Source of the DNA: Candidatus Moanibacter tarae
Lineage (GTDB): Bacteria; Verrucomicrobiota; Verrucomicrobiia; Opitutales; UBA2987
Direction: 5' to 3'
Assembly (NCBI GenBank): GCA_003226295.1
Contig: CP029803.1
Location: 1,481,477-1,545,476, forward strand
DNA: 64,000 bases
A program made the translations under genes and the position numbers. The notes beneath the pieces were generated by a model, which worked only from the letters and a program-made list of their open reading frames with translations, had not been told where the DNA came from and did no database searches. How positions within the stretch are numbered: the first letter of the stretch is position 1; each line of letters opens with the position of its first letter. Below, piece after piece: positions 20,824 through 64,000 of this stretch.

Positions 20824-21145
20824 TCAGGGAAGCCTGACAGCAATTATCTGAAACGTAACGATATAACTTGAATAATTGTTTTCCCACGGTGTTCTCCAAC
20901 GCTATTCTTTCTATCCTTCGCGCTATAAACTCCAGCTAGAGGAAAACTTGGTGGGAGTTTTCTATTATCGGCGAACAATTTCTGTTCTCGGACATTTGTC
21001 TCTATTTACTTTGTGGATCCTGCAGACAAAATTGTACCTTCAAAAATTCCCCTTGGCAACACACTCTCCTATCATACCGTTCATTCCTAAACGAACCTGG
21101 GACTTCTTAACAGTAAATTCTCCCTCATGAAGAACAACTCAAAGA

Positions 21146-48839: not shown

Positions 48840-49214
48840 TCAATAAATTGCGACCACTACTCGATTCCGTTCCACACGCACCGGGTAAGTTTTCACCCGA
48901 CCACGATGTGGATTGGCAATCGCTTCACCTTTTCTAAGGTCAAACTCCCACCCGTGCCAGGGACAAATTAAGATCTCTCCGACCCGATCAAGTACAATCT
49001 CTTCCCCCGGAAGACATGGCTTGATAGCACCGCTTACGAATCCTCTCGAAAGGGAAGCTCCCTGATGAGGGCAAACGTCCCGAAGGGCGAAAAAGGAATC
49101 TTCCTTACGAACGAGAACAATGGCCTTCCCGGCTAATTGTACTCGACAGGCCCGTCCTTTTTCAAAATCGGATACCGCACCAACGTCATACTCATTTGAA
49201 CCCATAGAAATCAA
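48840..49214 (-). CDS. Rieske [2Fe-2S] domain protein
   Basis: CPHQGASL (CxH) and CPWHGWEF (CxxH) Rieske ligand boxes in 124 aa. Start overlaps the amidohydrolase stop. Confidence 0.8.
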
Positions 49215-50325
49215 CTGCGTTCTCCACCATAATCTTTCTTCTTAGCCTGCGGTCAATGATAGACGGAAGAGACCGATCTGGAGAATCGAAATCCCAGTGC
49301 GGATAATCTGTCGCAAACATCAAAAAATCATCCCGTCCAATCATCTCCATAATCTGCGGTAGGAAGCTCGGTTCCGGAGGCTCTTCCATAGGCTGAGTGG
49401 TCGCCCGAAAGTGGTGAAGGATGTACTCACTTGGAGCTTTCTGCAGCCAGGGGACTTCGCTTCTCAGTCCCCGGTAATTCTTGTCCAATCGCCACATCAG
49501 TGCTGGGATCCAAGCAAATCCCCCTTCTATGAGAACGATACGCAAATCAGGTAACTCCTCAAACACTCCTTCACAAACGAGACTTATGACATGAGTCTCA
49601 AAGGCCTGGGTCATACTTGTGTGATCCTCAATGTAATATGAGGGCCACCCGCAGGCAGTTATTGGATTACCTCCTCCCCCAAAATGAATTCCAACCGGCA
49701 ACCCAGCCTCGGCTGCCGCCCGGAAAATTGGTCGAAATTCACGGCGCCCGTAGGGAGAATGGGATCTAACCAACAAAAGCACCTGTACAAAACGTGAATC
49801 ATCCGCTAGTCGAAGTATCTCCTCCCCCGCTGCCTCAGGATCATGGCTATTGACGACAATCGATCCTCGCCAACGGGGGTCCGAATCTAACCATACCTCC
49901 AACATCCAATCGTTCATCGCCCTCATCAATACGTTTGCAAGATCGATATTATATACTGATGAAATCCCCATCAGAGGATTGAGAATAGCCAGGTCAACGC
50001 CCCATTTCTCAATTAACTGCTCCCGCGAGAATCCTGGGTTTGTTCCAGGTTTTTTACCGTCCGGAGGCCATGCATCCCTCCGGGCTGCCATTTCGAAGAG
50101 TTTGGGGTAAATAGAAACTCCTGGTAACGGCATTCCAGATTGTTCAATATAGGTTCTCCACCGCGAAGAGAGAAAGGGAAAAAGATCCTCCATCCCGTTG
50201 GGATAGTTGTGAACGTCAGCATCAATCAAATTTAGCCCTTTTGCCAAATCTACTTCTACATCCCCCCCCGATACAGACGTTTTCATATTTGTTCCCTCTT
50301 CAAAAGCTGGAGCCAGATTTGACAC
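49192..50325 (-). CDS. amidohydrolase-2 (ACMSD-like metal-dependent hydrolase/decarboxylase) family protein
   Basis: TIM-barrel amidohydrolase_2 pattern with the N-terminal IDADVH metal-ligand motif and a distal FATDYPHWD. 377 aa. Confidence 0.65.
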
Positions 50326-50371: not shown

Positions 50372-51568
50372 CTATTTCTCTCCCTCTCTCCTTCCCAAGT
50401 AAAGGAGTACCAATGCAAAAATTGGGCTTCCCACAGCAGTCAAGGGCAGAATCCAATAGACTTTGCCGAAAACCGAAAGGAGCAGAATAAGATATATAAA
50501 ATCCCGATTACCTAAAGCATCCATGATTTTCGAGATTCTACTCGATCTCGTCCTAACGACGGAGGAAAACGAGGGGATTTCGGTCCGGGCCCAAAACACT
50601 GATTTTCGGTACACTAACCATGCCGTCCACAACACACCTGCAATTGCAATAGCTGTTACGAGCAATGGCCATTTCCCCTGATTTCCAATCCACCATCCAA
50701 TCCCCATACAAAAAAATACAGCAGAATGTACTAAATTATCCCCCCAAAGATCGAGCTTCATACCTATTCGTGACTCCTGAAACCGAAGCCGCGCTAGTTC
50801 CCCATCACATCCGTCAATTATCGCATGAATGAGAAAGAGAAGTGCACCAGTAAATTGATCTATGGCTCGTGCCGAAAGAAAATACGGGCTACTCGATAAC
50901 CCAATTCCAACACTAAAAATTGTCCACAGATTTGGTGAGATTGGCGTCGATACAAGATGCCTAGAAATTGCCAAGGAGATTCGACGATGGAAATGACGGG
51001 CGATAAGGGAATCACTTTTCTTGATCAATCGCTCGAGGAGCCAGCTCTCGGCCTTATCAATCCCTGCGCCACTAGGAATCAAGGTCCGACCTTGATGGTC
51101 TACCTCAAGTAATTCTGTCTCAATCTCTCGATCAAAGACAAGACCTAGATCCTCTTCGCTTCGCCCATATCGGGTCGACGGAAACAATTTTAATGACTTT
51201 TTCGTTTCGATAGCAGCAGCCACCCCAGTGTCACAATAGAGTCGATCTGGTTTCAGTGGTGTCTCCAACAAAGTTTTGAGCCAAGTGGCGTCTGGGAGTA
51301 CACCCCCGACCATGAATACGATCCTCCTGAATCCAGCCAAATCTAACGTCGCATCCAACGATTTAAACTCTACGGTCGTCCCCTCCAGGATTTTTGTCAC
51401 CTCACGGTCCTCTCTCACGGCCACCCAGATGTTGTCAAATCCCGCTCTTTTAGCAGAGAGAACCATCCGGCGAATTAATGGCAATCCAAGTATAGGCTGA
51501 TCCAGTCTAACCGACTCATCTAATTCATCGGGCCAAAGAAAAACAACCAATTGCGATGAAGTCTCCAT
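50372..51568 (-). CDS. two-domain CDP-alcohol phosphatidyltransferase with N-terminal nucleotidyltransferase-like domain (IPCT/DIPPS-like architecture)
   Basis: The C-terminal membrane domain carries an intact D-G-x2-A-R-x8-G-x3-D-x3-D motif (CDGELARLRFQESRIGMKLDLWGD). The roughly 200-aa soluble N-terminal domain has an NTP-transferase-like pattern (PILGLPLIRRMVLSAKRAG) but lacks the Gly-rich loop. The start is taken at METSSQ. Confidence 0.6.
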   Translation of the reverse strand: METSSQLVVFLWPDELDESVRLDQPILGLPLIRRMVLSAKRAGFDNIWVAVREDREVTKILEGTTVEFKSLDATLDLAGFRRIVFMVGGVLPDATWLKTLLETPLKPDRLYCDTGVAAAIETKKSLKLFPSTRYGRSEEDLGLVFDREIETELLEVDHQGRTLIPSGAGIDKAESWLLERLIKKSDSLIARHFHRRISLAISRHLVSTPISPNLWTIFSVGIGLSSSPYFLSARAIDQFTGALLFLIHAIIDGCDGELARLRFQESRIGMKLDLWGDNLVHSAVFFCMGIGWWIGNQGKWPLLVTAIAIAGVLWTAWLVYRKSVFWARTEIPSFSSVVRTRSSRISKIMDALGNRDFIYLILLLSVFGKVYWILPLTAVGSPIFALVLLYLGRREGEK

Positions 51569-51688
51569 CCTAAAGATTAAATCGTAAAGCAACCGCCTTC
51601 AGTTATCCAGATAAACCTTGTCCGTGAAAAGAAGTCGGAAAGGTTGCTTTTTTCTAGACCGCTAAACTCCCACCTAATTCCTATCTAA

Positions 51689-52699
51689 TTAACGGATCTT
51701 TCCTTCATTCTTGAACCAATTGATACTTTCCAAGAGAGATGTACGACAGTCTCGCATGGGCGGCAAATCTAGTTTTTCAGCCGACCGACTACCGTTAAAA
51801 TGTAGAATTCGCTTTGTTAGCTTTACCCCAGTCACAGTGGCCATCGGTAGTTTTCGAGAGTTGAATAGATAGCGAATCCATTCTTCAAAATAGGCAAAAG
51901 TCAGCGCAACGGTATAAGGGATCCGCCGCTGGGGCGCAGGACGATCCACCAGTTTAGAGAGATATCGAAACAAATCGACAATCGTCCAATTCTCGTGGAC
52001 CAGGAGATAGCTCCTTCCCACTTCACCTCTCTGTGCAGCTATCCAGATTCCGGCTGCGACATCCCTAACATCAATAAAGTTAAGATACCCATCGAGATAG
52101 GCCTTAATTCGCCCATTGCAAAAGTCGCAAATCATTCGAGAAGGAGGACCCATGTTCCGATCGCCTGGACCAATTGGAATACTCGGACGGACAATAACTA
52201 CAGGATCGCCGGATTCCGCAGCCTCTCTGGCTGCCTCTTCAGCTAGCCACTTACTCTCACAATAGGGCCCTATCATATCCTCAAAGTCAGTTTGAGTCTC
52301 TTCAGTGATGACACCTTTCATTCCCTTCGGAGATAGTATGGACTCAGTCGAAACATGCACTATCCTCCCGGCTCCTGCTTTTCGCGCAGCCGAAAGCACA
52401 TTTCGAGTCCCTTGGTGATTGACCTGCTCAAACTCCTCTGAGTCTCGTGCCCAGAGATTAGGGTTCGCCGCTAGATGTAAGACCACTTGGCAGCCTTCTG
52501 CCGCATTTTTTACTCCCAAAGGGTCACGAAGATCGACATGAACAATCTCAACCCTATCCGAAGGCAGGTGATGCGTGAGAGCCCCGGGCTTCTCCAGTAC
52601 TCTTACCTCGCAGCCTTCATCCACAAGCATCTTTACAAGATGCGAACCCACAAAACCGGCCCCTCCAGTTACCAATACCTTCCTTTTATTTTCAGCCAC
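51689..52699 (-). CDS. NAD-dependent epimerase/dehydratase (extended SDR; HpnA-like)
   Basis: KVLVTGGAGFVGSHLVKMLVDEGCEV Rossmann motif, the YxxxK context (YCESK), and 336 aa. Confidence 0.8.
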   Translation of the reverse strand: MAENKRKVLVTGGAGFVGSHLVKMLVDEGCEVRVLEKPGALTHHLPSDRVEIVHVDLRDPLGVKNAAEGCQVVLHLAANPNLWARDSEEFEQVNHQGTRNVLSAARKAGAGRIVHVSTESILSPKGMKGVITEETQTDFEDMIGPYCESKWLAEEAAREAAESGDPVVIVRPSIPIGPGDRNMGPPSRMICDFCNGRIKAYLDGYLNFIDVRDVAAGIWIAAQRGEVGRSYLLVHENWTIVDLFRYLSKLVDRPAPQRRIPYTVALTFAYFEEWIRYLFNSRKLPMATVTGVKLTKRILHFNGSRSAEKLDLPPMRDCRTSLLESINWFKNEGKIR

Positions 52700-52732: not shown

Positions 52733-53791
52733 TCATTCTCTTATTTCGATTCCAATCCGTGTAATCTCAATAAGCCTATCAAGCACATCCAAAGAGGGTG
52801 CCTGCTGCGTCTTCTCCATGCATTTAATGAAATTAAAAATCGATCGATTGAGAGGAATTTTACGTTCTCCTGCAAGCTCGATCAAATGACCGTTAAAAAA
52901 GTCAATCTCCGTCCGTCCTTTCTCGATATCACCCGCCATCGAACAGTAGGTGTTACGTAGTGAGTTTGCGAAAGGCTTTGCCAGGATCTTCGCTAGAAAG
53001 GGATAATGAAGAATGCGATTCACGGTGTCAGGATGGAAGGGCCCAATGACTCCTAGAGGCACACCTGCAGCCTTAAGGATGCCATAGTTTTCCTGCAAAA
53101 TCCGAAAGAAGAAATCACGGGCCTTTCGAATTGTTAAAAGCTGACCATTATCTAGACCAGCCATCGCCGCCAACGGACTAATGGCGGCATTATACATAAC
53201 CTTACTGTACTTGTAAGGAAGAACATTAGGAACAATCTTCACATTAAAATCACCATGCTTCTTGAGGACGTCTAACACCCTTATGAATTTCCCTTGAATT
53301 TCCCTCTTATTGTATTCTCCCCATTGGCCAATGTGGAGGTCTCCTCTCCTCGTAATTCGGGTCTGGGTCTTGTCCGGAAGGCATTCGGAAACAAATGATG
53401 CAATTCCTTCTAAGTTACTGCGTTCCATTAATTCTGAATCGAATCCATTCTGGATCGGCAGCACCCCTGCTGATTTAGGTAATCGCTTAAGAATAGATGC
53501 ATTCTCAAAACATTTCGTACAAAGAATGACAACACACGTATCCGAAGGCTTCCACTCCTCGAAGCAAACAAACTTGGCTGATAATAACGAACGATTATCC
53601 AACCCAATTCCATTACGACTACCCCATTCTAGTTTTCGTCGATCGACTTCGACAAACGTTACATCGAACCCGCCGGAAATGAGAGCATACCCTACCGCGC
53701 AGCCAATGCCTCCAGCCCCAACTATATAGATTTCCACGGAACTTTCACTGGGACCTCTGGTCGAACAACTCCAAATTGATCGTCCTTCCAC
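52733..53791 (-). CDS. 2-dehydropantoate 2-reductase (ApbA/PanE) family oxidoreductase
   Basis: IYIVGAGGIGCAVGYAL dinucleotide fold at the N-terminus and a KPR-like C-terminal helical domain. The true start is probably near 53734, which gives about 330 aa. Confidence 0.65.
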   Translation of the reverse strand: MEGRSIWSCSTRGPSESSVEIYIVGAGGIGCAVGYALISGGFDVTFVEVDRRKLEWGSRNGIGLDNRSLLSAKFVCFEEWKPSDTCVVILCTKCFENASILKRLPKSAGVLPIQNGFDSELMERSNLEGIASFVSECLPDKTQTRITRRGDLHIGQWGEYNKREIQGKFIRVLDVLKKHGDFNVKIVPNVLPYKYSKVMYNAAISPLAAMAGLDNGQLLTIRKARDFFFRILQENYGILKAAGVPLGVIGPFHPDTVNRILHYPFLAKILAKPFANSLRNTYCSMAGDIEKGRTEIDFFNGHLIELAGERKIPLNRSIFNFIKCMEKTQQAPSLDVLDRLIEITRIGIEIRE

Positions 53792-53947: not shown

Positions 53948-54712
53948 CTACTGGACAACAAGCCCACCGTCAACCGTCATCATATGGCCAATAACAAATG
54001 AAGCTTTGTCCGAACAGAGCCAGATGACAGCCTCAGCGATCTCCTCGGGCTTTCCGACACGTCCAATCGGCTGCCAACTATCAGCTTCCGCCTTTAAGTC
54101 AGGGTTGCTCGCGTAGATACGATCCATCAGCGGCGTGTTGACTAGCCCCGGGCACACGGCATTGATACGAATGCCCCGGCCCGCATACTCCACAGCGGCC
54201 GACTTGGTCAATCCGGCGACCCCATGCTTACTTGCCACATAGATTGGTTGATCAGGTATACCAACCAACCCTGCAACTGAAGAGCTGTTAACAATTGCGC
54301 CGGACCCTTGTTCCAGCATCTGCGGGATTTGGTACTTCATACAAAGCCAGGCCCCCTTAAGGTTTGTATCGATCAGCGTTTGGAAAGTCTCCTCAGCATG
54401 TCGCTGGTCTGGATTGGAAATTTCCCGCTCAATACCTGCGTTATTAAAGGCAAAATCGAGTCGGCCATAGGTCTCAATAGTCTTGCGAATCAGAACCTTG
54501 ACCTCGTCAGAAACCGTTACATCGGCTCTAACGAAGGTTGCCTCTCCGCCAAAGTCTTCAATCATGTTAACAGTCTCACCAGCACCTTTTTCATACATGT
54601 CGGAGACAACTGTCTTGGCACCCTCTCGAGCAAAGGCTAGAGCAGTGGCCCGACCTATCCCAGATGCACTACCAGTTACAAGTGCGACGTTACCCGCGAA
54701 CCATTCTTTCAT
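53948..54712 (-). CDS. SDR family oxidoreductase (FabG-like)
   Basis: ALVTGSASGIGRA, NNAG, catalytic YVASKHGV, and the PG motif. 254 aa. Confidence 0.85.
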   Translation of the reverse strand: MKEWFAGNVALVTGSASGIGRATALAFAREGAKTVVSDMYEKGAGETVNMIEDFGGEATFVRADVTVSDEVKVLIRKTIETYGRLDFAFNNAGIEREISNPDQRHAEETFQTLIDTNLKGAWLCMKYQIPQMLEQGSGAIVNSSSVAGLVGIPDQPIYVASKHGVAGLTKSAAVEYAGRGIRINAVCPGLVNTPLMDRIYASNPDLKAEADSWQPIGRVGKPEEIAEAVIWLCSDKASFVIGHMMTVDGGLVVQ

Positions 54713-54850
54713 TTTTATTCCTCATCAACAGGGTTACCATATTTTCCCAACCATTTTTATGTAATAAAATGCTCGATCTATCTACCCATCAATAATTTAA
54801 ATCAGTAAACAAGTCCATCCACCGGAAAATACAAAAGACGTTGAAGAGAT

Positions 54851-56110
54851 TCATGAATCAGCTATCCCGTCTCGGCATATTGCCGCTGTCGCATACCATC
54901 TCTGGTCTTTTATGACGGTTTCCCACCATCGGCTCATGTCTCTTTCGTTCATCCTTCCCCAATCTCTCGTCCCATCCTGTAAAGCTTCACCCATTCTTTG
55001 CGCTAATGCAACCAGCCTATCACCTTCCAACCGCTGCTCATCATCCCAAAAGGTCAGAGCAGTATCCAGTGATTGATTAGCCTTAAGGATCTCTGTAAGG
55101 GACATAACACTATACAGTGCCTTGGTAGCTCCAGCCGCAACATGGGGTCGGACAACAGCAGATGCATCACCAAGCAGACAGATATTACCCCTTCGGTAAC
55201 TCGGTATATTGCCATCAAATATTGCCTGTATAAACGGTCGGCCGGTGCGAATAATCATTTCTGCAATAAATTCGGGCAGAAACCTCAGAGCCTGCTCATG
55301 GAGCTCTGAAATCCTCTCATCCGAAACACTACCAGCGGGTAATGAAGTAGCGTGGATTGTACCGTTTCGGTCGGTGAGAGATTTAGCTAAATCGACTTCA
55401 GGCGTATTAACATACCATCCCCAGTTGAGTCGCCGTTGTCCAACCTCGGTTTCGCCATTACGCCCCGGGACAAGGTAAGCTATGAGATGGCCCAAAGGGG
55501 TAACAGCAAAGATATTAATCCCTTCCAGAACCGTAACGTCGTTGATAAGCTGCTCATCTATCAAACCTCGCCACATTATGTATCCAGCATATCGAAGTCC
55601 TTGGTCAGGGTATAGTATACTCCGGCCAGTCGACATGTACCCATCGGCGCAAACGACAAGATCAAAGACAGCATCTTGACCAGAAGCTAGTTCGACTACG
55701 GTGCCCCCTTCTCTCTCCTGAAAACCTGTCACTTCGCAACCTTGATGATAAATATCGTCACGTACACGTTTACGCAGAGTCCGATAGAGTGCATCCCAGT
55801 TGGTTGCAGCAATGTCGAAGTTTTGCTCCCAAAGAACACGTCTTCCACCCCCAGAGCGAGTATAGAAATCTCGCCTCCTGATGGGTAATATAGCCATTTT
55901 AGTATCAAAAATGTCACGCTCCTGGAGTGCCTCGACGAGGGCAAATGGGAATCCGATACCCGCACCTCGATCCTTTAGTGAACCCGTTGAGCGCTCGAAA
56001 ACTGTAACATCACACCCAGCGCGATCGAGTTCTATCGCAGCGGCACACCCAGCAATGGACCCCCCGATTATACACGTCCTTAATCCTTGGGCTACTCCTC
56101 TTTCTGACAT
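54851..56110 (-). CDS. FAD-dependent monooxygenase (UbiH/PHBH-like aromatic hydroxylase family)
   Basis: CIIGGSIAGCAAAIELDRAGCDVTVFER FAD fold, the distal DG motif (VVCADGYMS), and the GD motif (LLGDASAVVRPH). Confidence 0.8.
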   Translation of the reverse strand: MSERGVAQGLRTCIIGGSIAGCAAAIELDRAGCDVTVFERSTGSLKDRGAGIGFPFALVEALQERDIFDTKMAILPIRRRDFYTRSGGGRRVLWEQNFDIAATNWDALYRTLRKRVRDDIYHQGCEVTGFQEREGGTVVELASGQDAVFDLVVCADGYMSTGRSILYPDQGLRYAGYIMWRGLIDEQLINDVTVLEGINIFAVTPLGHLIAYLVPGRNGETEVGQRRLNWGWYVNTPEVDLAKSLTDRNGTIHATSLPAGSVSDERISELHEQALRFLPEFIAEMIIRTGRPFIQAIFDGNIPSYRRGNICLLGDASAVVRPHVAAGATKALYSVMSLTEILKANQSLDTALTFWDDEQRLEGDRLVALAQRMGEALQDGTRDWGRMNERDMSRWWETVIKDQRWYATAAICRDGIADS

Positions 56111-56641: not shown

Positions 56642-57631
56642 TTAGTTAGACCTAGTTCTCAATAATTGCTGACTTTCCACAATCTGCCATAGCAGTAGCG
56701 CAGGAATTCCAAAAAGGAGGGTACGGGCTCGAACCAAAAGAGCGAGCGCAAGTCCAGTTTCAGGACCTAGGCCGAGGGCCGTTCCTAGAACCATGAAACC
56801 ACCCTCCTGAACACCTAGAGCACCAGGAATAAAAAACACGGCATTGCGTACCGCATGCGTCATGCTTTCAAGCATTATAGCTTCGATTATACCAATTGGA
56901 TGACCGAGAAAATGAAGACCGATTAGAATCTGACCAGTCCCTAAAAAGACCCCCATCATGCGCCAGAACACTGCATAAAAGAGATCCCTTTTTTTCTGAT
57001 AGAGCTTATCTAGGGCTGTATCCAAGGCCTTTGCACCCCCTGTAACACTCTGCCAGTTTGCCACTTTTACGATCTTCTCAATGCGTTGTGCTAGGCGTGA
57101 AAACATTCCCCAGCGTTGAGCAATGTAGAACCCCATAACGCACAACAAAAACAAAGAAATCCCACCGATCGCAGCATGGGCAGTTTCCCCAAATCCGTAG
57201 TAATAGATGAAGAAAGCTATACCCAAAATAACGAAAATCGACTGAGAAGCGATCGCCAAAGTCACGTCGACGATGACGCTCGCACCAGCCTCGGAACTCC
57301 GAGATCCCCTAAGAGAAGCCAATCTAACCCTAAGCAACTCGCCTCCCACCTGAGCAACTGGCAATAGACTGTTTGCGGAAGTTCCCACCCACCGAATCCA
57401 ACAAACGGAGACGAATGAAGGCCGTCCCGCTGCACCCAATAAAATCCACCAACAAATAGCACTGGCCGAGAATGGGATTACACTGTAGGCTACCATTGCA
57501 AGCAGTCCCCACCCAGACTGAACGAGGGCCTCGGCCACCTTTCCGAATCCCTGAATCACAACCAATCCAAGCATCAATGCTATACCGATCAGCCAGAGTA
57601 GGATAGTGAAAATACGCATCGTAAACCTCAA
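56642..57631 (-). CDS. UPF0104 / lysylphosphatidylglycerol-synthase-TM-region (flippase-like, HpnL-like) membrane protein
   Basis: About 8 TM helices and 329 aa. The N-terminus MRIFTILLWLIGIALMLGLVVIQGFGKVAEAL, the conserved positions and the length fit the LPG_synthase_TM-only family. Confidence 0.65.
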   Translation of the reverse strand: MRFTMRIFTILLWLIGIALMLGLVVIQGFGKVAEALVQSGWGLLAMVAYSVIPFSASAICWWILLGAAGRPSFVSVCWIRWVGTSANSLLPVAQVGGELLRVRLASLRGSRSSEAGASVIVDVTLAIASQSIFVILGIAFFIYYYGFGETAHAAIGGISLFLLCVMGFYIAQRWGMFSRLAQRIEKIVKVANWQSVTGGAKALDTALDKLYQKKRDLFYAVFWRMMGVFLGTGQILIGLHFLGHPIGIIEAIMLESMTHAVRNAVFFIPGALGVQEGGFMVLGTALGLGPETGLALALLVRARTLLFGIPALLLWQIVESQQLLRTRSN

Positions 57632-57935: not shown

Positions 57936-58451
57936 TTGATCCAAAGACTCTTCAAACTAATCCACCTCTTCCCCTCAATACCCATGCAACCCCATAACTG
58001 GAAGATCTCTTCGATATACTGTTCTATAGCCCTAGTTTCTTATTCCCAAGTCTGCGGCGTGAATTTAGCAGAGGGAAAACTGCTCTCCGGCACACTCAGT
58101 ATTCAGATCTCCGGATTGCGAAGCAAAAAAGGAACACTCAGGATCGGTCTATTTAATTCTAAGGAGACATTCTCCAAGAGAGGGAAAGCTCTTCGCTCAG
58201 CGGTAGTGAAACCGAATTCAAGAAAGGTCGAAACCAGCTTTAAGGAACTACCCTACGGAAATTACGCTATTTCCCTCTACCACGACGAGAACGACAATGA
58301 CAAATACAACCTAGGCCTTGTACTGTTTTCACGCGAGCGCTACGGGTTTTCCAACAATGTAAAACCCGGTCTCAGGGGACCCCCGTCCTTCGAAGCCGCG
58401 ATGTTCCTAATGAACTCAGATGAGAAAGTCGTAACAATAAAATTACATTAG
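57936..58451 (+). CDS. DUF2141-like secreted protein
   Basis: Signal-peptide-like start. GTLRIGLFNSKETF and YHDENDNDKYNLGLVLFSRERYGFSNN match the DUF2141 consensus pattern as I recall it. Confidence 0.5.
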   Translation: MIQRLFKLIHLFPSIPMQPHNWKISSIYCSIALVSYSQVCGVNLAEGKLLSGTLSIQISGLRSKKGTLRIGLFNSKETFSKRGKALRSAVVKPNSRKVETSFKELPYGNYAISLYHDENDNDKYNLGLVLFSRERYGFSNNVKPGLRGPPSFEAAMFLMNSDEKVVTIKLH

Positions 58452-58472: not shown

Positions 58473-59492
58473 CTAGTCCATTTTTCGCCACTCATCGAAA
58501 GCCGAAGTGGTACGGACACAACCCACAGTGCAGGTTTTGTTGCAAAATTTTGGTGTATGGAACTGCTCTCGAAGGTCATCATGAGTATAGTCCATTAAAT
58601 TCTTGGAGAATATTCCCCGAGTTTGAGAGCACCAGTGGACGATTCCGAATTCGTCTATGTAGAGATAACGTGCTCCAGCCCGACATTTGAATGGAGCAAC
58701 TCCGTCTCGAATAAGTTTTTCCCTGTAACGATCAGCATCCTCCAACCTCGGACCAATCATCTGTTTGACCTCTCGATAGGCTGCCAACTCTTCCGTATTT
58801 AACCGCAATTGGCCGTTAGAATCATGAATAAGGAGGATTCGTGGAACAAAACCTCGGTCCCTGGCAAATCGAACCACCTCTACTGCTTCTTCAGGAGGCG
58901 CACTTCCAATCACACCGCTCATCACCACTTTGAATCGGGCATGTTTGCTTAATAGTTCGAGTTTCTTTCGGAGTGGCTGGAGCGTCTTTACAGTGATCTT
59001 ATTCGGCTTTACTCCATCGACGCTAATCTGCATATCAGTCAACCCACTAACATTGAGAGATTCTATGAGTTCTTCGGTAAGCCGATACCCATTAGTAATC
59101 ATCAGCCGCCGCCGTACACCAAGGGCTTTCAACTCGCTAATGAGGCCCGGTAAATCAGGGTGGAGCGTCGGCTCTCCTCCAGTTAGGCAAACCGCCCAGG
59201 TTTTTAGTTGGCGTAATTTTCTGAACCGACTGATCAAGACTTCCGATGCTATCGGCTCCGAGGTCTTATCGAATTCCGAACAGTAAGTACAAGAGAGATT
59301 GCAGCGCCGGACAATGACGATTTGCGCTAGGAACGGTCCGTATCGGATCCATTGAAAAGAGCTCAAATTACGGCCAGCCATACTATCTGGCGACACCTCT
59401 GCATACTCTTCTCTTCCTCCACTGGACGAATGCTTGTCCTTCTTCTCCTTCTCTATCAAGGACTTTATCCCCCAATTGAATCTGCCAGCCAT
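58473..59492 (-). CDS. radical SAM enzyme with C-terminal auxiliary Cys cluster
   Basis: CNLSCTYC (CxxxCxxC) followed by GGEPTL. The C-terminal cysteines (FKCRAG...HWCSQ...FCNKTCTVGC) suggest a SPASM/twitch-like second cluster. Convergent with DUF2141 and co-directional with dxs. Confidence 0.75.
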   Translation of the reverse strand: MAGRFNWGIKSLIEKEKKDKHSSSGGREEYAEVSPDSMAGRNLSSFQWIRYGPFLAQIVIVRRCNLSCTYCSEFDKTSEPIASEVLISRFRKLRQLKTWAVCLTGGEPTLHPDLPGLISELKALGVRRRLMITNGYRLTEELIESLNVSGLTDMQISVDGVKPNKITVKTLQPLRKKLELLSKHARFKVVMSGVIGSAPPEEAVEVVRFARDRGFVPRILLIHDSNGQLRLNTEELAAYREVKQMIGPRLEDADRYREKLIRDGVAPFKCRAGARYLYIDEFGIVHWCSQTRGIFSKNLMDYTHDDLREQFHTPKFCNKTCTVGCVRTTSAFDEWRKMD

Positions 59493-59576: not shown

Positions 59577-61493
59577 TTAATGGGCCAATGTCGCCCTTTC
59601 ACGAGGCACAGAAATTTGGTTCAAGCGCTTCAGGATACGATTGAAGATCGAATTATTGTCGAGGTCGTTAACAGCACGTAGATCACCGACAGAACTCCCA
59701 TGATCAACAAAACGGTCAGGCCATCCAACAATCTCAACAGGAATTTCACAGGAGGACTCATTGAGAGCTTCCAAGACAGAGGAACCAAAGCCTCCTTTTG
59801 AAACATGATCTTCTATTGTCACGATCAGTTCCATCTTACTGGCGTGCTGCATAAGAAGCTCAAGATCGATTGGTTTAGCGAACCTGGCATTGACTACACC
59901 GGCTGAAATCCCTTCTTCAACTTCCAATCGATCCGCTAATTTGAGAGCTTCCTGAACCCAAGGACCTAGAGCCCAAAAAACAAGCTCTTTCCCCTCCCTT
60001 AGAACCTCGGCCTTGCCAATATCAATATATTGGGGGTCATCTTTTATAGTCACACCTGAAGCCTCCCCACGCGGATAACGAACAAAAGTCGGATCGGATG
60101 TATAAAGGCTCGTCCAAAGCATGTCCACTAATTCGTCTTCGTCCTTGGGCTGCATCACAACCGTACCCGGTATGCATCGTAAATAAGCTATATCGAAAAG
60201 ACCATGATGAGTCGGACCGTCCTGGGGAGATAGTCCAGCCCGGTCCATACAAAATGTCACTGGAAGGTTTTGGACGCCAACATCGTGAATGATCGGATCG
60301 TAGGCCCGCTGCAGCATTGTTGAGTAGATGGCACAAACCGGTCGAAATCCTTGGGTCGCTAATCCAGCCGCAAACAGCACAGCATGCTCTTCCGCCATCC
60401 CCACATCAAAAAATTGTTTTGGGGAGGCTTCGCGCAGCATATTCAAACTGGTTCCCGCCGACATAGCAGCCGTTATTCCCACCACTTTCGAGTCCTCTTT
60501 TGCAAATCGGACCATAGCCCTCCCAAAAACGTCCTGAAATTTGGGCGGACCTCCTGGTTTTCCCGGCTTGCTCTTACCTGTTGTAATATTAAAGGGGCTC
60601 GGACCATGGAATTTTTCCGGATCTTTCAACGCCGGTTCGTAACCCTTTCCTTTTGTGGTCATGATGTGGAGAACAACCGGACGGTCACAATTCTTACAGA
60701 ATTCGAGGTAGTGGGTAACCGCTTCTAGATCATTCCCCTCAATTGGACCAAGGTAGCGCAGTCCGTAGTTTTCGAAAAGTGACGATGGTACAAACAACTC
60801 TTTGGCCTCTTTTTTTGCCTTTTTCCCGATTTTTATAAGGGATTCACCACCAGGCAATTTTTCCAGGAACTTACTGACATCCTGATCGATACGGTTGTAA
60901 ATTGGATTGGTGATCAACTCATTGAGATACTTTGATATAGCCCCAACATTCGGCGAGATAGACCACTTGTTGTCATTTATTACGACGATGAGCCGCTTAG
61001 TGTGAATCGCCACATTATTAAGGGCTTCCATAGTGATTCCACAGGTTAATCCCGCATCGCCAACCACGGCTACAACGTGCTCATCACTCCCTCTGATATC
61101 TCGTGCCACCGCCATTCCAATAGCAGCGGAAAGCCCGGTTCCTGCATGCCCCGCACCATAACTGTCGTGAGCACTCTCCGTTCGACAGAGGAAACCACTT
61201 ACCCCCCCCGTCATCCGAATATTCTTAAAACCGTCTCCTTGCCGTCCAGTTAGAAGCTTGTGGACATAGCCCTGATGGGAAACATCAAAAGTGAATTTGT
61301 CTCGCGGGGAGTCGAACACCCGGTGCAAGGCAAGAGTGAGTTCTACCACTCCCAGATTGGGGCCCAAATGACCCCCATTCACAGACGTTACTTCGATAAG
61401 TTCTTCACGGATTTCATCAGCTAACTTAACCAACTCGTGCTGAGTAAGCTTTCTAATATCCGAGGGTTCATTTATTTCATGTAGGATTGCCAT
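59577..61493 (-). CDS. dxs: 1-deoxy-D-xylulose-5-phosphate synthase
   Basis: N-terminal GGHLGPNLGVVELTLALHRVF, the TPP motif GDAGLTCGITMEALNNV, and a transketolase-like C-terminal. 638 aa. Confidence 0.92.
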   Translation of the reverse strand: MAILHEINEPSDIRKLTQHELVKLADEIREELIEVTSVNGGHLGPNLGVVELTLALHRVFDSPRDKFTFDVSHQGYVHKLLTGRQGDGFKNIRMTGGVSGFLCRTESAHDSYGAGHAGTGLSAAIGMAVARDIRGSDEHVVAVVGDAGLTCGITMEALNNVAIHTKRLIVVINDNKWSISPNVGAISKYLNELITNPIYNRIDQDVSKFLEKLPGGESLIKIGKKAKKEAKELFVPSSLFENYGLRYLGPIEGNDLEAVTHYLEFCKNCDRPVVLHIMTTKGKGYEPALKDPEKFHGPSPFNITTGKSKPGKPGGPPKFQDVFGRAMVRFAKEDSKVVGITAAMSAGTSLNMLREASPKQFFDVGMAEEHAVLFAAGLATQGFRPVCAIYSTMLQRAYDPIIHDVGVQNLPVTFCMDRAGLSPQDGPTHHGLFDIAYLRCIPGTVVMQPKDEDELVDMLWTSLYTSDPTFVRYPRGEASGVTIKDDPQYIDIGKAEVLREGKELVFWALGPWVQEALKLADRLEVEEGISAGVVNARFAKPIDLELLMQHASKMELIVTIEDHVSKGGFGSSVLEALNESSCEIPVEIVGWPDRFVDHGSSVGDLRAVNDLDNNSIFNRILKRLNQISVPRERATLAH

Positions 61494-61783: not shown

Positions 61784-63034
61784 ATGATAGCGATAATTTA
61801 TAAGTTCCCCGGGGATGCCTGGGTTCAACTTGGTGGAATGTCCGTCCTTGAGCGGAACCTGCGGTCGCTCGATAAAATCAACATTGAAAAAGTACGAATC
61901 GTCCTTCCTCCCGGAGAGTATCCACCAACGATATCCATTCCAAGGCCCCTCGGAATAAAACAAGAGATTGTCCACGAAAAACTAGTCGAGAATAACCTAC
62001 TTTCTACGTTAGGAGTGGCATTCCCAAAGAATTCCGAGTCTGCGTTGATCTTTCACGCTAACTTACTAACAGACCCCAGGATTTTTATCTTCTTAGCAGG
62101 CTTGAACTGTGCATTTTTTTCCCTAGATCCAGACGCAACAACACCGCAAAAAAATTGGAGGATCGCCCTACTAAGATTTAAAGACCTGGAAAAGGTGGAT
62201 GAACTGTGGGAAAAGGTAGATCTAATAACTCAAAACGATATAGCCAGCTATGACACCGAAGTCCGCGGGGAAGTCGATCCTTACTGTCTAGGTATAAATA
62301 GTCCCGAAAAACTGCACCAAGGCTGGGAGATCCTCATACGGAGATCGCAGAAACGGCCAGGTGATTTCATTGAGAAATACGTCCATCCCGACATACAAAA
62401 CTGGATTGTCAAAAGGATCTGCGACACCTCGATAACTCCGAATCAGATCTCTTTCATTGTCATCGCCTGCGCTGTAGCTGGCGCAATCCTATTCTATCAT
62501 GGACTTTTTCTTATCGCATGGATTTTGGCATTTTCAGCAACAATACTTGACGGCGTAGATGGCAAACTCGCACGTGTTAAACTGATGACTTCCAAGCTTG
62601 GTAAGTTTGAGCATATTTTTGATTACTTTGGTGAAAACGCTTGGTACCTCTGTCTAGCAAGAAATCTTGCTCTTACCTCCGGGCCCTCTGCATGGCTCTG
62701 TGGTATTGCCATTTCAGCCTGCGACACCGTGGATCGAATTATTGCCGCCTTCTTTGAAAAAAGAATGAAAATAACGCTTGACGAATATTCACTGTTCGAC
62801 CGCGACTTTCGACTGATTGGGGGCCGCAAAACCATATACCTTTTTTTCCTTCTGGTCGGTTTTTTTTCCGACTCCCTCTATTCTGCTCTTAAAATTTCAT
62901 TAGCCTGGGCAATCTTCACTGTCTTCATACACGCAACCAGAAGCTTCTGGCATTTCCGGAGAGCACCAAGGGTTGGTACCATCTCAGCCATACCTGAACA
63001 GGCCAAGTCTTCTTCAGATGGAACGGGGACATAG
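61784..63034 (+). CDS. second two-domain CDP-alcohol phosphatidyltransferase paralog with degenerate catalytic motif
   Basis: Same architecture as the gene at 50372-51568, with an N-terminal NTP-transferase-like soluble domain (IAIIYKFPGDAWVQLGGMSVLERNL). The membrane domain carries DGKLARVKLMTSKLGKFEHIFD, where the first conserved Asp of G-x3-D-x3-D is His and the second Asp is shifted. Start at the internal ATG. Confidence 0.55.
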   Translation: MIAIIYKFPGDAWVQLGGMSVLERNLRSLDKINIEKVRIVLPPGEYPPTISIPRPLGIKQEIVHEKLVENNLLSTLGVAFPKNSESALIFHANLLTDPRIFIFLAGLNCAFFSLDPDATTPQKNWRIALLRFKDLEKVDELWEKVDLITQNDIASYDTEVRGEVDPYCLGINSPEKLHQGWEILIRRSQKRPGDFIEKYVHPDIQNWIVKRICDTSITPNQISFIVIACAVAGAILFYHGLFLIAWILAFSATILDGVDGKLARVKLMTSKLGKFEHIFDYFGENAWYLCLARNLALTSGPSAWLCGIAISACDTVDRIIAAFFEKRMKITLDEYSLFDRDFRLIGGRKTIYLFFLLVGFFSDSLYSALKISLAWAIFTVFIHATRSFWHFRRAPRVGTISAIPEQAKSSSDGTGT

Positions 63035-63365: not shown

Positions 63366-64000
63366 CTAGTTACTACGTCGCGAGCGCAGAAGATAGTAAG
63401 AAGGCAGTATGATCAAGGTCGTGGTCATGGTAAGGAAGACTCCCAGACAAAGCAACTGGCCAAGACTAGCGGTACCTCGATGAGAGAGAAACATGAGCGT
63501 GCCAAAACTAAACATAGTCGTGAGCCCGCTGAAAAGGACACCTCTAGCAGTACTAGTGTGTAGAAAGTCTGTATTCGTACCGGAGATGCTCCGCATGCGA
63601 TGGACCATATGGATACCATTATCAACTCCTAGTCCAAGAAGAAGAGGCAGGGCTATTATATTGGCAAAGTTAAAGGATGCTCCCATGAGAACAGTCGCAG
63701 CGCCGGTGAAGAGACCAGCAACAAGCAAGGGGATCAAGACGAGAAGGGGTTCCGCCCAATTCCTAAAGATGGCTATCAATAGTACCGTAATAAGTAATAA
63801 GGCACTGAGAAAAGCCTGTTTAAAAGAATAGACAATGGTCCTCCCCGCTTCATATGTAAATATGGGACCCGAAGTTGCATTGGAAGCAACCGTCCTTACT
63901 TCATTGACGAAGCGGATTAAGGCTTCATTTTCGGATATGTTAAGGTTTGAAAAAACTTGGATCCGAAAGCGTTCGTTTTCGCTAATCCAACGGTCGCGAA
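63366..64000 (-). CDS. MMPL/RND-superfamily transporter, C-terminal portion (HpnN-like); gene continues beyond window end
   Basis: The reading frame stays open from the window edge to the stop at 63366. The translation (…FVNEVRTVASNATSGPIFTYEAGRTIVYSFKQAFLSALLLITVLLIAIFRNWAEPLLVLIPLLVAGLFTGAATVLMGASFNFANIIALPLLLGLGVDNGIHMVHRMRS…) is the characteristic last TM bundle of MMPL/RND exporters. The ORF track's 137-aa call begins at an internal TTG. Confidence 0.65.
   Translation of the reverse strand, partial: RDRWISENERFRIQVFSNLNISENEALIRFVNEVRTVASNATSGPIFTYEAGRTIVYSFKQAFLSALLLITVLLIAIFRNWAEPLLVLIPLLVAGLFTGAATVLMGASFNFANIIALPLLLGLGVDNGIHMVHRMRSISGTNTDFLHTSTARGVLFSGLTTMFSFGTLMFLSHRGTASLGQLLCLGVFLTMTTTLIILPSYYLLRSRRSN

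What the first reader, a model, noticed from the sequence alone, without database searches (positions are those of the whole stretch)
50372..51592. IPCT/DIPPS-like two-domain enzyme (NTP-transferase-like domain fused to CDP-alcohol phosphatidyltransferase) embedded in a redox operon
The C-terminal half has a textbook CDP-alcohol phosphotransferase motif, D-G-E-L-A-R-x8-G-x3-D-x3-D. It is fused to a soluble domain of about 200 aa that looks like a nucleotidyltransferase but lacks the glycine-rich loop. The best-known bacterial and archaeal example of this architecture is the bifunctional CTP:inositol-1-phosphate cytidylyltransferase/di-inositol-phosphate-phosphate synthase of hyperthermophiles. 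Finding it in a mesophile-like genome, inside an operon of oxidoreductases rather than next to inositol-phosphate synthase, suggests a different alcohol substrate. That would mean an unknown phosphodiester-linked head group or solute.
Basis: partly seen in the sequence, partly recalled or inferred. Interest (0 to 1): 0.8.

Follow-up and report, generated by a model that had tools for sequence, protein, structure and literature searches.

The report
AF2299-like phosphotransferase in hopanoid island
This is a real but uncharacterised membrane enzyme, a CDP-alcohol phosphotransferase capped by a degenerate nucleotidyltransferase domain, that travels with two reductase genes and here sits in a hopanoid-lipid gene island, so it probably builds an unknown phosphate-linked head group rather than the heat-stress solute its database name implies.

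Summary

That N-domain lacks the AAGxGSRL loop, the PKP lysine and the catalytic Asp, so it is probably inactive. The closest solved relative is AF2299. It is not a DIPPS member (NCBIfam 74 bits against a cutoff of 580), nor PgsA, PssA or PIPS.

The family is large: 893 representatives at E<=1e-30. In 74 of 80 species loci it sits beside a separate NTP-transferase, ATP-grasp, aminotransferase, GFO oxidoreductase, HAD, MIPS and HpnL. HpnN, MlaC, SHC, squalene synthase and dxs are frequent neighbours.

The window gene belongs to a nested clade found in Verrucomicrobia, Nitrospirae and Alphaproteobacteria. There all of those genes are replaced by an abutting ApbA-like reductase and HpnA-like SDR. 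The window cassette lies in a hopanoid island (HpnL, dxs, HpnN, HpnG-like) that also holds a second divergent two-domain paralog.

The substrate is unknown. The most likely product is a non-inositol phosphodiester head group on an envelope lipid. The enzymology is known; the pathway is unexplored.

The parts
50372..51568 (-). CDS of the two-domain CDP-alcohol phosphotransferase: 398 aa from ATG 51568. The mechanical ORF extends to TTG 51592. The stop codon is at 50372-50374.
   Evidence: P0001, 100% identity, 398 aa; public gene call 19926-21122 in L089.
51041..51568 (-). N-terminal cytosolic domain (aa 1-176). It has a nucleotidyltransferase (cytidylyltransferase-like) fold but lacks the AAGxGSRL loop, the PKP lysine and the catalytic Asp, so it is a presumed non-catalytic cap.
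50375..51040 (-). Linker, juxtamembrane helix and six-TM CDP-alcohol phosphotransferase domain (aa 177-398).
   Evidence: PF01066, aa 220-330. (the DIPPS model matches only aa 177-399). (AF2299, aa 194-356). (helices 188-397).
50738..50815 (-). Catalytic signature D252GCD255GELAR260-x8-G269-x3-D273-x3-D277.
   Evidence: translation. (all signature residues invariant in 49 homologues).
51689..52699 (-). HpnA-like extended SDR (336 aa), a conserved partner immediately upstream.
   Evidence: Epimerase, 3Beta_HSD. (TIGR03466 HpnA, 314.5 bits end to end, cutoff 367.65). Present in 6 of 6 trio-clade loci. Also seen.
52733..53791 (-). ApbA/PanE (ketopantoate-reductase family)-like reductase, the first gene of the conserved three-gene cassette. 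The public call starts at 53737 (334 aa).
   Evidence: TIGR00745, 110 bits, cutoff 141. Present in 6 of 6 trio-clade loci and in none of the 74 others. Also seen.
56642..57631 (-). HpnL (LPG_synthase_TM / flippase-like membrane protein), co-directional and about 5 kb upstream.
   Evidence: TIGR03476, 310.3 bits, cutoff 195.65. An HpnL-like gene lies next to family members in 53 of 74 non-trio loci.
53948..56110 (-). SDR (53948-54712) and FAD monooxygenase (54851-56110) between HpnL and the cassette. They are shared only with the closest relative (L009), so they are probably not core.
48840..50325 (-). Amidohydro_2 (49192-50325) and Rieske ferredoxin (48840-49214) immediately downstream. They are conserved only within Moanabacter/Opitutales relatives.
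   Evidence: 2 of 6 trio-clade loci.
59577..61493 (-). [quoted passage not shown]
   Evidence: TIGR00204, 713.8 bits. dxs lies near family members in 17 of 80 loci.
61784..63034 (+). Second two-domain CDP-alcohol phosphotransferase paralog (416 aa by the public call). It is 24% identical to the target and has an off-register motif.
63366..64000 (-). 3' end of hpnN (hopanoid RND transporter), cut by the window end.
   Evidence: tblastn. (the full gene in L089 scores 915.7 bits on TIGR03480, cutoff 751.85). An HpnG-like gene lies just beyond it.

Best explanation
The gene encodes a class I CDP-alcohol phosphotransferase of the AF2299/DIPPS structural type.

Mechanism. A six-helix membrane domain uses the D-x2-DG-x2-AR...G-x3-D-x3-D metal site to transfer a phospho-alcohol from a CDP-activated donor onto an acceptor hydroxyl, releasing CMP. 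The N-terminal domain is a degenerate cytidylyltransferase fold. It caps the active site but no longer makes CDP-alcohols, so the protein is monofunctional.

Gene partners. The gene is the last member of a mobile three-gene cassette: ApbA-like reductase, HpnA-like SDR, then the phosphotransferase. The cassette descends from a larger bacterial family. In most lineages that family is wired to an inositol/aminocyclitol-phosphate pathway (MIPS, separate NTP-transferase, GFO oxidoreductase, class-III aminotransferase, ATP-grasp, HAD, HpnL) within hopanoid gene islands.

Inferred function. In this clade the inositol branch has been swapped for two NAD(P)H reductases. These presumably supply or modify the alcohol partner. 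The CDP donor is then either an unidentified soluble CDP-alcohol made elsewhere in the genome or a housekeeping one; CDP-diacylglycerol or CDP-methylerythritol are the obvious candidates. The product would be a non-inositol phosphodiester head group on an envelope lipid. In Ca. Moanabacter the pathway is co-located with HpnL (flippase-like) and HpnN (hopanoid exporter).

Shown: fold, motif, loss of cytidylyltransferase signatures, family and clade structure, gene neighbourhoods. Inferred: inactivity of the cap, role of the reductases, lipid (rather than solute) product, identity of donor and acceptor.
For: Catalytic domain:
- PF01066 scores above cutoff.
- The motif is invariant in 49 homologues.
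- The best PDB sequence hit is AF2299, E 8.6e-18.
- Foldseek to AF2299 gives TM 0.74 over both domains.

Degenerate cap:
- There is no Pfam or NCBIfam hit on aa 1-176.
- hhalign aligns only residues 21-104.
- Stand-alone NTP-transferases in sister clusters keep IiAAGeGSRL...PKPlV...STVD. This family has llvi.p........vsp.t.lLGLpLlRR...nVLp instead.
- A separate NTP-transferase is encoded in 57 of 74 non-trio loci.

Soluble-donor type: the juxtamembrane helix and TM domain score much higher on the DIPPS model (74.5 bits) and AF2299 than on PIPS (37.9) or PgsA (21). AF2299 and DIPPS use soluble CDP-alcohols (PMC4634129).

Cassette:
- The ApbA-like and HpnA-like genes occur in 6 of 6 clade loci and none of the inositol genes do.
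- The ORFs abut or overlap in L095-L097.
- Two further metagenome contigs show ApbA-like followed directly by HpnA-like.
- The clade is monophyletic and nested in the MIPS-linked family.
- Residues next to the catalytic site differ by clade: S187, A/N249, M270, L274.

Hopanoid link:
- In the same island: HpnL at 310 bits, HpnN at 916 bits, HpnG-like at 165 bits, and dxs.
- In the wider family: HpnL 53, dxs 16, HpnN 13, MlaC 11, SHC 7 and squalene synthase 5 of 74 loci.

Literature: the functions of HpnA and HpnL are still unknown (PMC12583986; bioRxiv 10.1101/2025.07.29.667474).
Against: There is no biochemical evidence for any member, and neither donor nor acceptor is identified.

The trio cassette stands outside hopanoid islands in other genomes (L003, L095-L097). 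The hopanoid link of this particular clade therefore rests on the Moanabacter and Opitutales loci and on ancestry.

The window HpnL may belong to the neighbouring paralog/radical-SAM module rather than to this gene.

No cytidylyltransferase lies in the cassette. That fits a CDP-DAG donor, whereas sequence affinity points to soluble-donor enzymes. These two inferences pull in different directions.

HpnA-like (314 bits against 368) and HpnG-like (165 against 187) both score below their curated cutoffs. No SHC or HpnH was seen within the sequence available. To my knowledge, phosphodiester-linked hopanoids have not been reported.

Inactivity of the cap domain is inferred from sequence only.
Confidence: 0.55

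Rival explanations
1. The enzyme makes a soluble phosphodiester compatible solute. It would work like DIPPS or the presumed AF2299 reaction: condense a CDP-polyol with a polyol phosphate made by the two reductases, giving an osmolyte for a marine bacterium rather than a lipid.
For: The nearest structural and sequence relatives, AF2299 and DIPPS, act on soluble substrates (PMC4634129). The MIPS + NTP-transferase + CDP-AP + HAD set found in the main clade is exactly the gene set needed for di-inositol phosphate. The trio cassette is autonomous and sits outside lipid loci in several genomes. The ApbA/KPR-type enzymes solved so far act on a small soluble keto acid (2-dehydropantoate).
Against: The family sits next to flippase-like HpnL in 53 of 74 loci, and also next to HpnN, MlaC, SHC and squalene synthase. 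The cassette has no phosphatase or cytidylyltransferase. The HpnA-like partner resembles lipid-acting SDRs: SdmB at 152 bits, OleD at 106 bits, plus 3Beta_HSD and NAD_binding_4.
Confidence: 0.17
2. The enzyme is a phospholipid synthase of the PIPS type. It would use CDP-diacylglycerol as donor and a small alcohol, or alcohol phosphate, produced by the ApbA-like and HpnA-like reductases as acceptor. The product would be a new phosphatidyl-X head group unrelated to hopanoids.
For: The cassette contains no cytidylyltransferase, and CDP-DAG is universally available. PIP synthases are the closest lipid-processing relatives. The cassette occurs without hopanoid genes in L003 and L095-L097. In Bacteroides, inositol-lipid clusters also carry an LPG-synthase-like gene (PMC9246714).
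Against: The protein scores far below the PIPS, PgsA and PssA cutoffs (37.9/170, 21/109, 17.6/200). Its juxtamembrane and TM2 region resembles the soluble-donor enzymes AF2299 and DIPPS. Sister-clade clusters encode their own NTP-transferase, which implies a soluble CDP-alcohol donor for the family.
Confidence: 0.2
3. The protein is a genuine bifunctional IPCT/DIPPS, as annotated by Prokka, that makes di-myo-inositol phosphate.
Against: NF041135 scores 74.5 bits against a cutoff of 580 and covers only the DIPPS half. The N-domain lacks the GxGxR loop, the lysine and the Asp. No MIPS is present in the window or in any trio-clade locus. The host is a mesophile.
Confidence: 0.03
4. The protein is a decaying or neutral paralog with no specific function.
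For: None specific. Two divergent copies lie in one island.
Against: There are 38 invariant columns across four or more phyla, including the whole catalytic motif. The family has 893 representatives at E<=1e-30. Synteny is conserved with overlapping ORFs. The reading frame is intact.
Confidence: 0.02

Closest known systems
AF2299 of Archaeoglobus fulgidus (PDB 4o6m/4o6n/4q7c), a CDP-alcohol phosphotransferase with an N-terminal cytidylyltransferase-like domain
   Same: It is the best sequence match (E 8.6e-18) and the best Foldseek match over both domains (TM 0.74). It shares the juxtamembrane motif (D/S)xIARxxxRxxSLxISR and the core ...DGCDGE(I/L)ARLxF(M/Q)ES..G..LD. The cytosolic cap is also a cytidylyltransferase-like fold.
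   Different: Only 23% identical. It is archaeal and from a hyperthermophile. AF2299 was crystallised with CDP-glycerol and its physiological product is itself unsettled (PMC4634129, PMC8633023). It has no known ApbA/HpnA or hopanoid context.
IPCT/DIPPS (AF0263, PDB 4mnd; NCBIfam NF041135)
   Different: The N-domain here has lost the CTP-binding signatures. The protein scores 74.5 bits against a cutoff of 580. No MIPS is in this clade's loci. The host is a mesophile.
Bacteroides vulgatus-type 'alternative' inositol-lipid cluster (MIPS + NTP transferase + CDP-alcohol phosphatidyltransferase + HAD, with an LPG-synthase-like gene nearby; Heaver et al. 2022, PMC9246714)
   Same: The gene inventory matches the main clade of this family: MIPS, stand-alone NTP-transferase, CDP-AP, HAD and an LPG_synthase_TM protein. 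The logic is Kennedy-like, with a soluble CDP-alcohol and a lipid acceptor.
   Different: That pathway is itself unconfirmed. Homology of its transferase to this family was not tested here. The main clade adds an aminotransferase, a GFO oxidoreductase and an ATP-grasp. The window clade has none of the inositol genes.
Bacterial PIP synthases (PgsA1/RsPIPS; NF045883)
   Different: PIPS has no cap domain, uses CDP-DAG as donor, and the target scores 37.9 bits against a cutoff of 170.
Hopanoid-associated genes hpnA and hpnL (TIGR03466, TIGR03476)
   Same: The upstream partner aligns end to end with HpnA (314 bits). A true HpnL (310 bits, above cutoff) lies in the same gene string. HpnN and an HpnG-like gene are adjacent.
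   Different: The functions of HpnA and HpnL are not established (PMC12583986). Canonical hpn clusters are not described as carrying a CDP-alcohol phosphotransferase, and no paper was found linking them.

Membership tests
Class I CDP-alcohol phosphotransferases (PF01066) | Signature D-x2-D-G-x2-A-R-x8-G-x3-D-x3-D | tested here: met
   DGCDGELARLRFQESRIGMKLDLWGD at 50738-50815(-); invariant in 49 homologues.
Class I CDP-alcohol phosphotransferases (PF01066) | Pfam score above the gathering threshold | tested here: met
   40.8 bits against a cutoff of 22.
Class I CDP-alcohol phosphotransferases (PF01066) | Six-TM fold with a juxtamembrane helix | tested here: met
Bifunctional IPCT/DIPPS (NF041135) | Whole-protein score reaches the curated cutoff | tested here: not met
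   74.5 bits against 580; only profile positions 209-415 are matched.
Bifunctional IPCT/DIPPS (NF041135) | Catalytically competent cytidylyltransferase domain (G-rich loop, conserved Lys, Asp) | tested here: not met
   No NTP_transferase HMM hit. The loop, Lys and Asp are absent when aligned to genuine NTP-transferases.
Bifunctional IPCT/DIPPS (NF041135) | Two-domain architecture with an NTase fold N-terminal to the CDP-AP domain | tested here: met
Bifunctional IPCT/DIPPS (NF041135) | Genomic or metabolic link to myo-inositol-1-phosphate synthase | tested here: not met
   No MIPS in the 64-kb window or in 6 of 6 trio-clade loci. It is met in 37 of 74 loci of the sister clades.
Bifunctional IPCT/DIPPS (NF041135) | Synthesis of DIPP from CDP-inositol and inositol-1-phosphate | not testable with these tools
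   Requires an enzyme assay.
AF2299-like CDP-alcohol phosphotransferases | Closest sequence and structure similarity, including the cytidylyltransferase-like cap | tested here: met
   phmmer E 8.6e-18. Foldseek E 5e-15, TM 0.74, 23% identity. The cap of AF2299 is described as cytidylyltransferase-like in PMC4634129.
AF2299-like CDP-alcohol phosphotransferases | Use of a soluble CDP-alcohol donor (CDP-glycerol in the crystal) | not testable with these tools
   Only indirect: a higher score on soluble-donor models than on the PIPS or PgsA models.
Ordinary phospholipid synthases (PgsA, PssA, PIPS, ClsA) | NCBIfam equivalog score reaches the cutoff | tested here: not met
   pgsA 21/109, PIPS 37.9/170, archaetidylserine synthase 17.6/200, ClsA 17.6/240, archaetidylinositol-P synthase 50.2/180.
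Hopanoid (hpn) gene island component | Physical clustering with curated hopanoid-associated genes | tested here: met
   HpnL at 310 bits (cutoff 196), HpnN at 916 bits (cutoff 752), HpnA-like at 314 bits (cutoff 368), HpnG-like at 165 bits (cutoff 187), and dxs, all within about 15 kb.
Hopanoid (hpn) gene island component | The genome encodes squalene-hopene cyclase and HpnH | not tested
   Neither is in the window or in L089. SHC is adjacent to family members in 7 of 74 other loci.
Hopanoid (hpn) gene island component | The product is a hopanoid derivative | not testable with these tools
   Requires lipidomics.

The most novel reading that the evidence does not exclude
The family is the missing head-group transferase of hopanoid islands. 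It would attach a phospho-alcohol to the polyol side chain of an extended hopanoid: inositol or aminocyclitol phosphate in Rokubacteria, Acidobacteria and Nitrospirota, and a different, reductase-derived alcohol in the Moanabacter clade. The HpnA-like reductase would prepare the acceptor, for example by the still-unassigned NADPH reduction of ribosylhopane to bacteriohopanetetrol. HpnL would flip the product and HpnN would export it. This would define a new class of phosphodiester-linked bacteriohopanepolyols and assign functions to HpnA and HpnL.
Probability: 0.15. Interest if true: 0.85.

Novelty: new variant of a known kind. Interest (0 to 1): 0.62.

Why it matters
CDP-alcohol phosphotransferases define the head group of membrane phospholipids. 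This is a large bacterial family of them (893 representatives at 50% identity with E<=1e-30; relatives in at least 533 species genomes) with no characterised member and a misleading 'IPCT/DIPPS' or 'PgsA' annotation.

The family is consistently placed beside HpnL, HpnN, SHC, MlaC and isoprenoid genes. Together with an inositol/aminocyclitol-phosphate pathway, this points to an undescribed polar lipid or hopanoid derivative in environmentally dominant, mostly uncultured phyla.

It also offers a concrete handle on hpnA and hpnL, whose roles were still described as unknown in 2025.

One clade has cleanly replaced the seven-gene inositol branch with two reductases. This is a natural experiment in head-group switching, and heterologous expression of just three genes could exploit it.

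If hopanoid-linked, such compounds would be missed by standard derivatisation-based BHP analyses, which would matter for biomarker interpretation.

Tried and rejected
- Pfam and NCBIfam on the N-domain gave no hit. The fold had to be shown by structure prediction and hhalign.
- The original AF2299 paper (Sciara 2014) is not held, so AF2299's cap sequence and assays could not be checked directly.
- The radical SAM next to dxs was tested as HpnH and rejected. Its best NCBIfam hit is a generic core match.
- tblastn of MIPS, NTP-transferase, aminotransferase, GFO, HAD, SHC and MlaC seeds against the window found none; only the HpnN seed matched, at the window's right end.
- The promoter and terminator scan of 48.5-58 kb gave counts at the shuffle expectation, so it is uninformative about operon boundaries.
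- The metagenome scan with the ApbA-like protein returned only 3 short contigs. Two show ApbA-like followed by HpnA-like.
- The listing of cluster members gave no organism names, so no culturable carrier was identified.
- Naive ORF calling in the high-GC loci produced spurious antisense ORFs and over-long starts. The census was redone with tblastn.
- Strict specificity-position analysis yields only a few clade-specific residues. These are suggestive, not diagnostic.
- Literature searches for hopanoid + CDP-alcohol and for hopanoid + inositol-1-phosphate synthase found nothing relevant.
Full report
**1. Observation**

The identical public protein (P0001, 'Candidatus Moanabacter tarae') and all homologues begin at the ATG eight codons downstream. 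The real product is therefore most likely 398 aa, from 50372-51568. All residue numbers below use the 398-aa form.

Translating 50738-50815(-) gives DGCDGELARLRFQESRIGMKLDLWGD. This is the full class I CDP-alcohol phosphotransferase signature, D252-x2-D255-G-x2-A-R-x8-G269-x3-D273-x3-D277. Every signature residue is invariant in an alignment of 49 homologues down to 39% identity. Pfam PF01066 is the only family hit (aa 220-330, 40.8 bits, cutoff 22).

The source is a marine epipelagic verrucomicrobium with 46% GC (PMC6256433). 'Mesophile-like' is therefore right.

**2. The N-terminal domain**

Residues 1-176 match no Pfam or NCBIfam model. The AlphaFold2 model built on the 49-sequence alignment is confident (mean pLDDT 83, N-domain blocks mostly 80-92). 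It shows an alternating strand/helix domain followed by a linker helix, a juxtamembrane helix and six long helices.

- Foldseek against the PDB ranks AF2299 first (E 5e-15, target TM 0.74, both domains aligned), then IPCT-DIPPS 4mnd. Below E~1e-3 it lists RmlA, ST0452, KdsB, MurU and MobA-like nucleotidyltransferases.

The fold claim is therefore confirmed.

A profile-profile comparison with 31 stand-alone NTP-transferases taken from sister gene clusters gives E 1.9e-5, but aligns only residues 21-104. The consensus of those genuine enzymes is IiAAGeGSRLr..G...PKPlVpvaGvpLie ... STVDawC. This family reads llvi.p........vsp.t.lLGLpLlRR ... a.nVLp. The glycine-rich loop, the conserved lysine and the acidic residue are all missing.

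I infer that the domain no longer makes CDP-alcohols and serves as a structural cap. This matches the 'cytidylyltransferase-like domain' described for AF2299 (PMC4634129).

**3. What it is not**

| Model | Score (bits) | Cutoff (bits) |
|---|---|---|
| IPCT/DIPPS equivalog (DIPPS half only) | 74.5 | 580 |
| Archaetidylinositol-P synthase | 50.2 | 180 |
| PIP synthase | 37.9 | 170 |
| PgsA | 21 | 109 |
| Archaetidylserine synthase | 17.6 | 200 |
| ClsA | 17.6 | 240 |

By sequence, AF2299 (E 8.6e-18) is far closer than AfDIPPS (3.5e-7) or PIPS (about 1e-5 to 1e-6). The Prokka name 'Bifunctional IPC transferase and DIPP synthase' and the JGI name 'phosphatidylglycerophosphate synthase' are therefore both unsupported.

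**4. The family and its contexts**

The word-indexed search found 605 relatives. An exhaustive profile search found 893 50%-identity representatives at E<=1e-30. A scan of one genome per species found at least 533 encoding loci. The best 80 of those loci are all MAGs, from Rokubacteria/Methylomirabilota, Acidobacteriota, Nitrospirota, Rhodospirillales and Opitutales/Moanabacter.

A tblastn census of those 80 loci (mean 16 kb) is sharply bimodal. Counts for the 74 non-trio loci:

| Neighbouring gene | Loci (of 74) |
|---|---|
| ATP-grasp protein (RimK-like by PDB profile) | 60 |
| GFO/IDH/MocA oxidoreductase | 59 |
| Class-III aminotransferase | 58 |
| Stand-alone NTP-transferase | 57 |
| HAD hydrolase | 55 |
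| HpnL-like LPG_synthase_TM protein | 53 |
| MIPS | 37 |
| CopD-like membrane protein | 31 |
| dxs | 16 |
| HpnN (970 bits on TIGR03480 in L007) | 13 |
| MlaC | 11 |
| Squalene-hopene cyclase | 7 |
| Squalene-synthase-like | 5 |

Precomputed Pfam annotation of individual contigs agrees.

The remaining six loci carry none of these inositol-pathway genes. All six instead have an ApbA-like reductase and an HpnA-like SDR directly upstream. So do the window, two Tistlia contigs and three further NCBI contigs. In L095-L097 the three ORFs abut or overlap by a few bases. Two metagenome contigs recovered with the ApbA-like protein also show the HpnA-like gene next to it.

In a neighbour-joining tree the ApbA/HpnA-linked sequences form one clade nested inside the MIPS-linked family, sister to a Nitrospirales sequence. 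The clade spans Verrucomicrobia, Nitrospirae and Alphaproteobacteria. This suggests a mobile cassette.

A few positions flanking the catalytic residues are clade-specific: S187 versus G, A/N249 versus S, M270 versus G/S/A, and L274 versus F. This is compatible with a change of substrate, but it is not proof.

**5. The window locus**

Reading the minus strand from 57.6 kb to 48.8 kb, the genes are:
- HpnL (310 bits, above cutoff)
- FAD monooxygenase
- SDR
- ApbA-like reductase
- HpnA-like SDR (314.5 bits end to end; cutoff 367.65)
- the target
- Amidohydro_2
- Rieske ferredoxin

Upstream lie DUF2141, a radical SAM that is not HpnH, dxs, and a divergently transcribed second two-domain CDP-alcohol phosphotransferase. 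The 3' end of hpnN is cut by the window edge.

The same genome beyond the window carries the full HpnN (916 bits; cutoff 752) and an HpnG-like phosphorylase (165 bits; cutoff 187).

The FAD monooxygenase and SDR are shared only with the 90%-identical Opitutales relative. The amidohydrolase and Rieske genes are shared only within Moanabacter/Opitutales. I do not count any of these as core. The consensus promoter/terminator scan is uninformative.

**6. Mechanism**

*Shown.* The protein has the complete metal-binding and catalytic motif and the fold of enzymes that transfer a phospho-alcohol from a CDP-alcohol to a hydroxyl, releasing CMP.

*Inferred.*
- (a) The cap is non-catalytic. Sister clusters supply a separate NTP-transferase. 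With MIPS present, this makes CDP-inositol the likely donor there.
- (b) The juxtamembrane and TM2-3 region is much closer to the soluble-donor enzymes AF2299 and DIPPS than to CDP-DAG-using PIPS. A soluble CDP-alcohol donor is therefore favoured for the family.
- (c) In the main clade, the recurrent HpnL, HpnN, MlaC, SHC and squalene-synthase neighbours argue that the product is a membrane lipid head group, and possibly a hopanoid derivative. The GFO, aminotransferase and ATP-grasp genes suggest the inositol is converted to an N-substituted aminocyclitol.
- (d) In the window clade the whole inositol branch is replaced by two NAD(P)H reductases. The HpnA-like enzyme resembles lipid-acting extended SDRs: SdmB at 152 bits, OleD at 106 bits, with 3Beta_HSD and NAD_binding_4 domains; its best solved relative is the putative oxidoreductase 3wj7. 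The ApbA-like enzyme is a distant ketopantoate-reductase relative. They presumably generate or tailor the alcohol partner.

No cytidylyltransferase is in the cassette. The donor would then have to be made elsewhere, or be a housekeeping CDP-alcohol such as CDP-DAG or CDP-methylerythritol. This is the weakest link, and it conflicts partly with inference (b).

**7. Comparison with known systems**

The closest known protein is AF2299, whose own physiological reaction is unsettled (PMC4634129, PMC8633023). The closest known pathway logic for the main clade is the unconfirmed Kennedy-like 'alternative' inositol-lipid cluster of Bacteroides vulgatus (MIPS, NTP transferase, CDP-AP, HAD, with an LPG-synthase-like gene nearby; PMC9246714).

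The functions of hpnA and hpnL were still described as unknown in 2025 (PMC12583986; bioRxiv 10.1101/2025.07.29.667474). I found no paper connecting hopanoid loci with CDP-alcohol transferases or MIPS.

**8. Verdict**

It needs re-framing in four ways:
- The protein is AF2299-like, not a DIPPS.
- It is monofunctional.
- It descends from an inositol-linked family.
- It is part of a three-gene cassette lodged in a hopanoid island.

The enzymology is a known kind. The pathway and product are unknown and worth testing. Interest: 0.62.

Noticed in passing
window 61784-63034 (+) (ORF from 61754): A second two-domain CDP-alcohol phosphotransferase (416 aa), only 24% identical to the target. Its signature is off register: DGVDGKLAR-x8-G-KFE-H-IFD, which reads G-x2-E-x3-D rather than G-x3-D-x3-D. 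It has about 40 close homologues in Methylomirabilota and Deltaproteobacteria MAGs. In L093 it lies between a radical SAM gene and an LPG_synthase_TM gene, with a SAM_HAT (PF01887) gene upstream in both L093 and L094. This echoes the window's arrangement of radical SAM, dxs, paralog and HpnL, so the window HpnL may belong to this module.
   Followed up: partly
window 58473-59492 (-): A radical SAM protein next to dxs in the hopanoid-type island. It is not HpnH: the best NCBIfam hit is a generic core match to Tes at 72 bits. It is only weakly similar (36% over 108 aa) to the radical SAM next to the paralog's homologue in L093.
   Followed up: partly
window 63366-64000 (-) and L089 4797-8128: The window ends inside hpnN (916 bits on TIGR03480 for the full gene). 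Just beyond it lie an HpnG-like phosphorylase (165 bits, below the cutoff of 187), an iolG-like GFO oxidoreductase, lpxA and lpxC/fabZ. No SHC or HpnH was seen in the accessible sequence.
   Followed up: partly
L005-L007, L013-L088 (for example L006 2292-10597, L015, L021, L077): The main clade of the family sits in a recurrent cluster that is, as far as I could find, undescribed: HpnL, HAD, NTP-transferase, ATP-grasp, Aminotran_3, GFO_IDH_MocA, CDP-AP and MIPS. A CopD-like membrane protein, HpnN, MlaC, SHC, squalene synthase and dxs are often nearby. It looks like an aminocyclitol/inositol-phosphate head-group pathway in the hopanoid islands of Rokubacteria, Methylomirabilota, Acidobacteriota and Nitrospirota.
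   Followed up: partly
L005 6310-6963, L007 10646-11338, L015 13275-14768: Several main-clade clusters carry a second, short PIPS-like CDP-AP of 217-230 aa. In L015 this second CDP-AP is fused to a genuine NTP_transf_3 domain, which makes it a true IPCT/DIPPS-like fusion sitting beside the degenerate-cap enzyme. Two transferases per cluster seems to be a theme, as in the window.
   Followed up: no
window 57936-58451 (+): A DUF2141 protein (102 bits) lies between HpnL and the radical SAM gene. It is also present in the closest relative, L009. Its function is unknown.
   Followed up: no
window 48840-50325 (-): An Amidohydro_2 gene and a Rieske ferredoxin overlap by 23 bp directly downstream of the target. 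They are conserved in Moanabacter and Opitutales relatives only. The Rieske protein gives a weak hit to the sterol 4-methyl monooxygenase SdmA, while the HpnA-like gene hits SdmB at 152 bits.
   Followed up: no
window 19249-22459 (+): A 524-aa ORF with no Pfam hit is followed by a 437-aa protein with a weak Glyco_transf_21 (ceramide glucosyltransferase-like) match. Neither was examined further.
   Followed up: no
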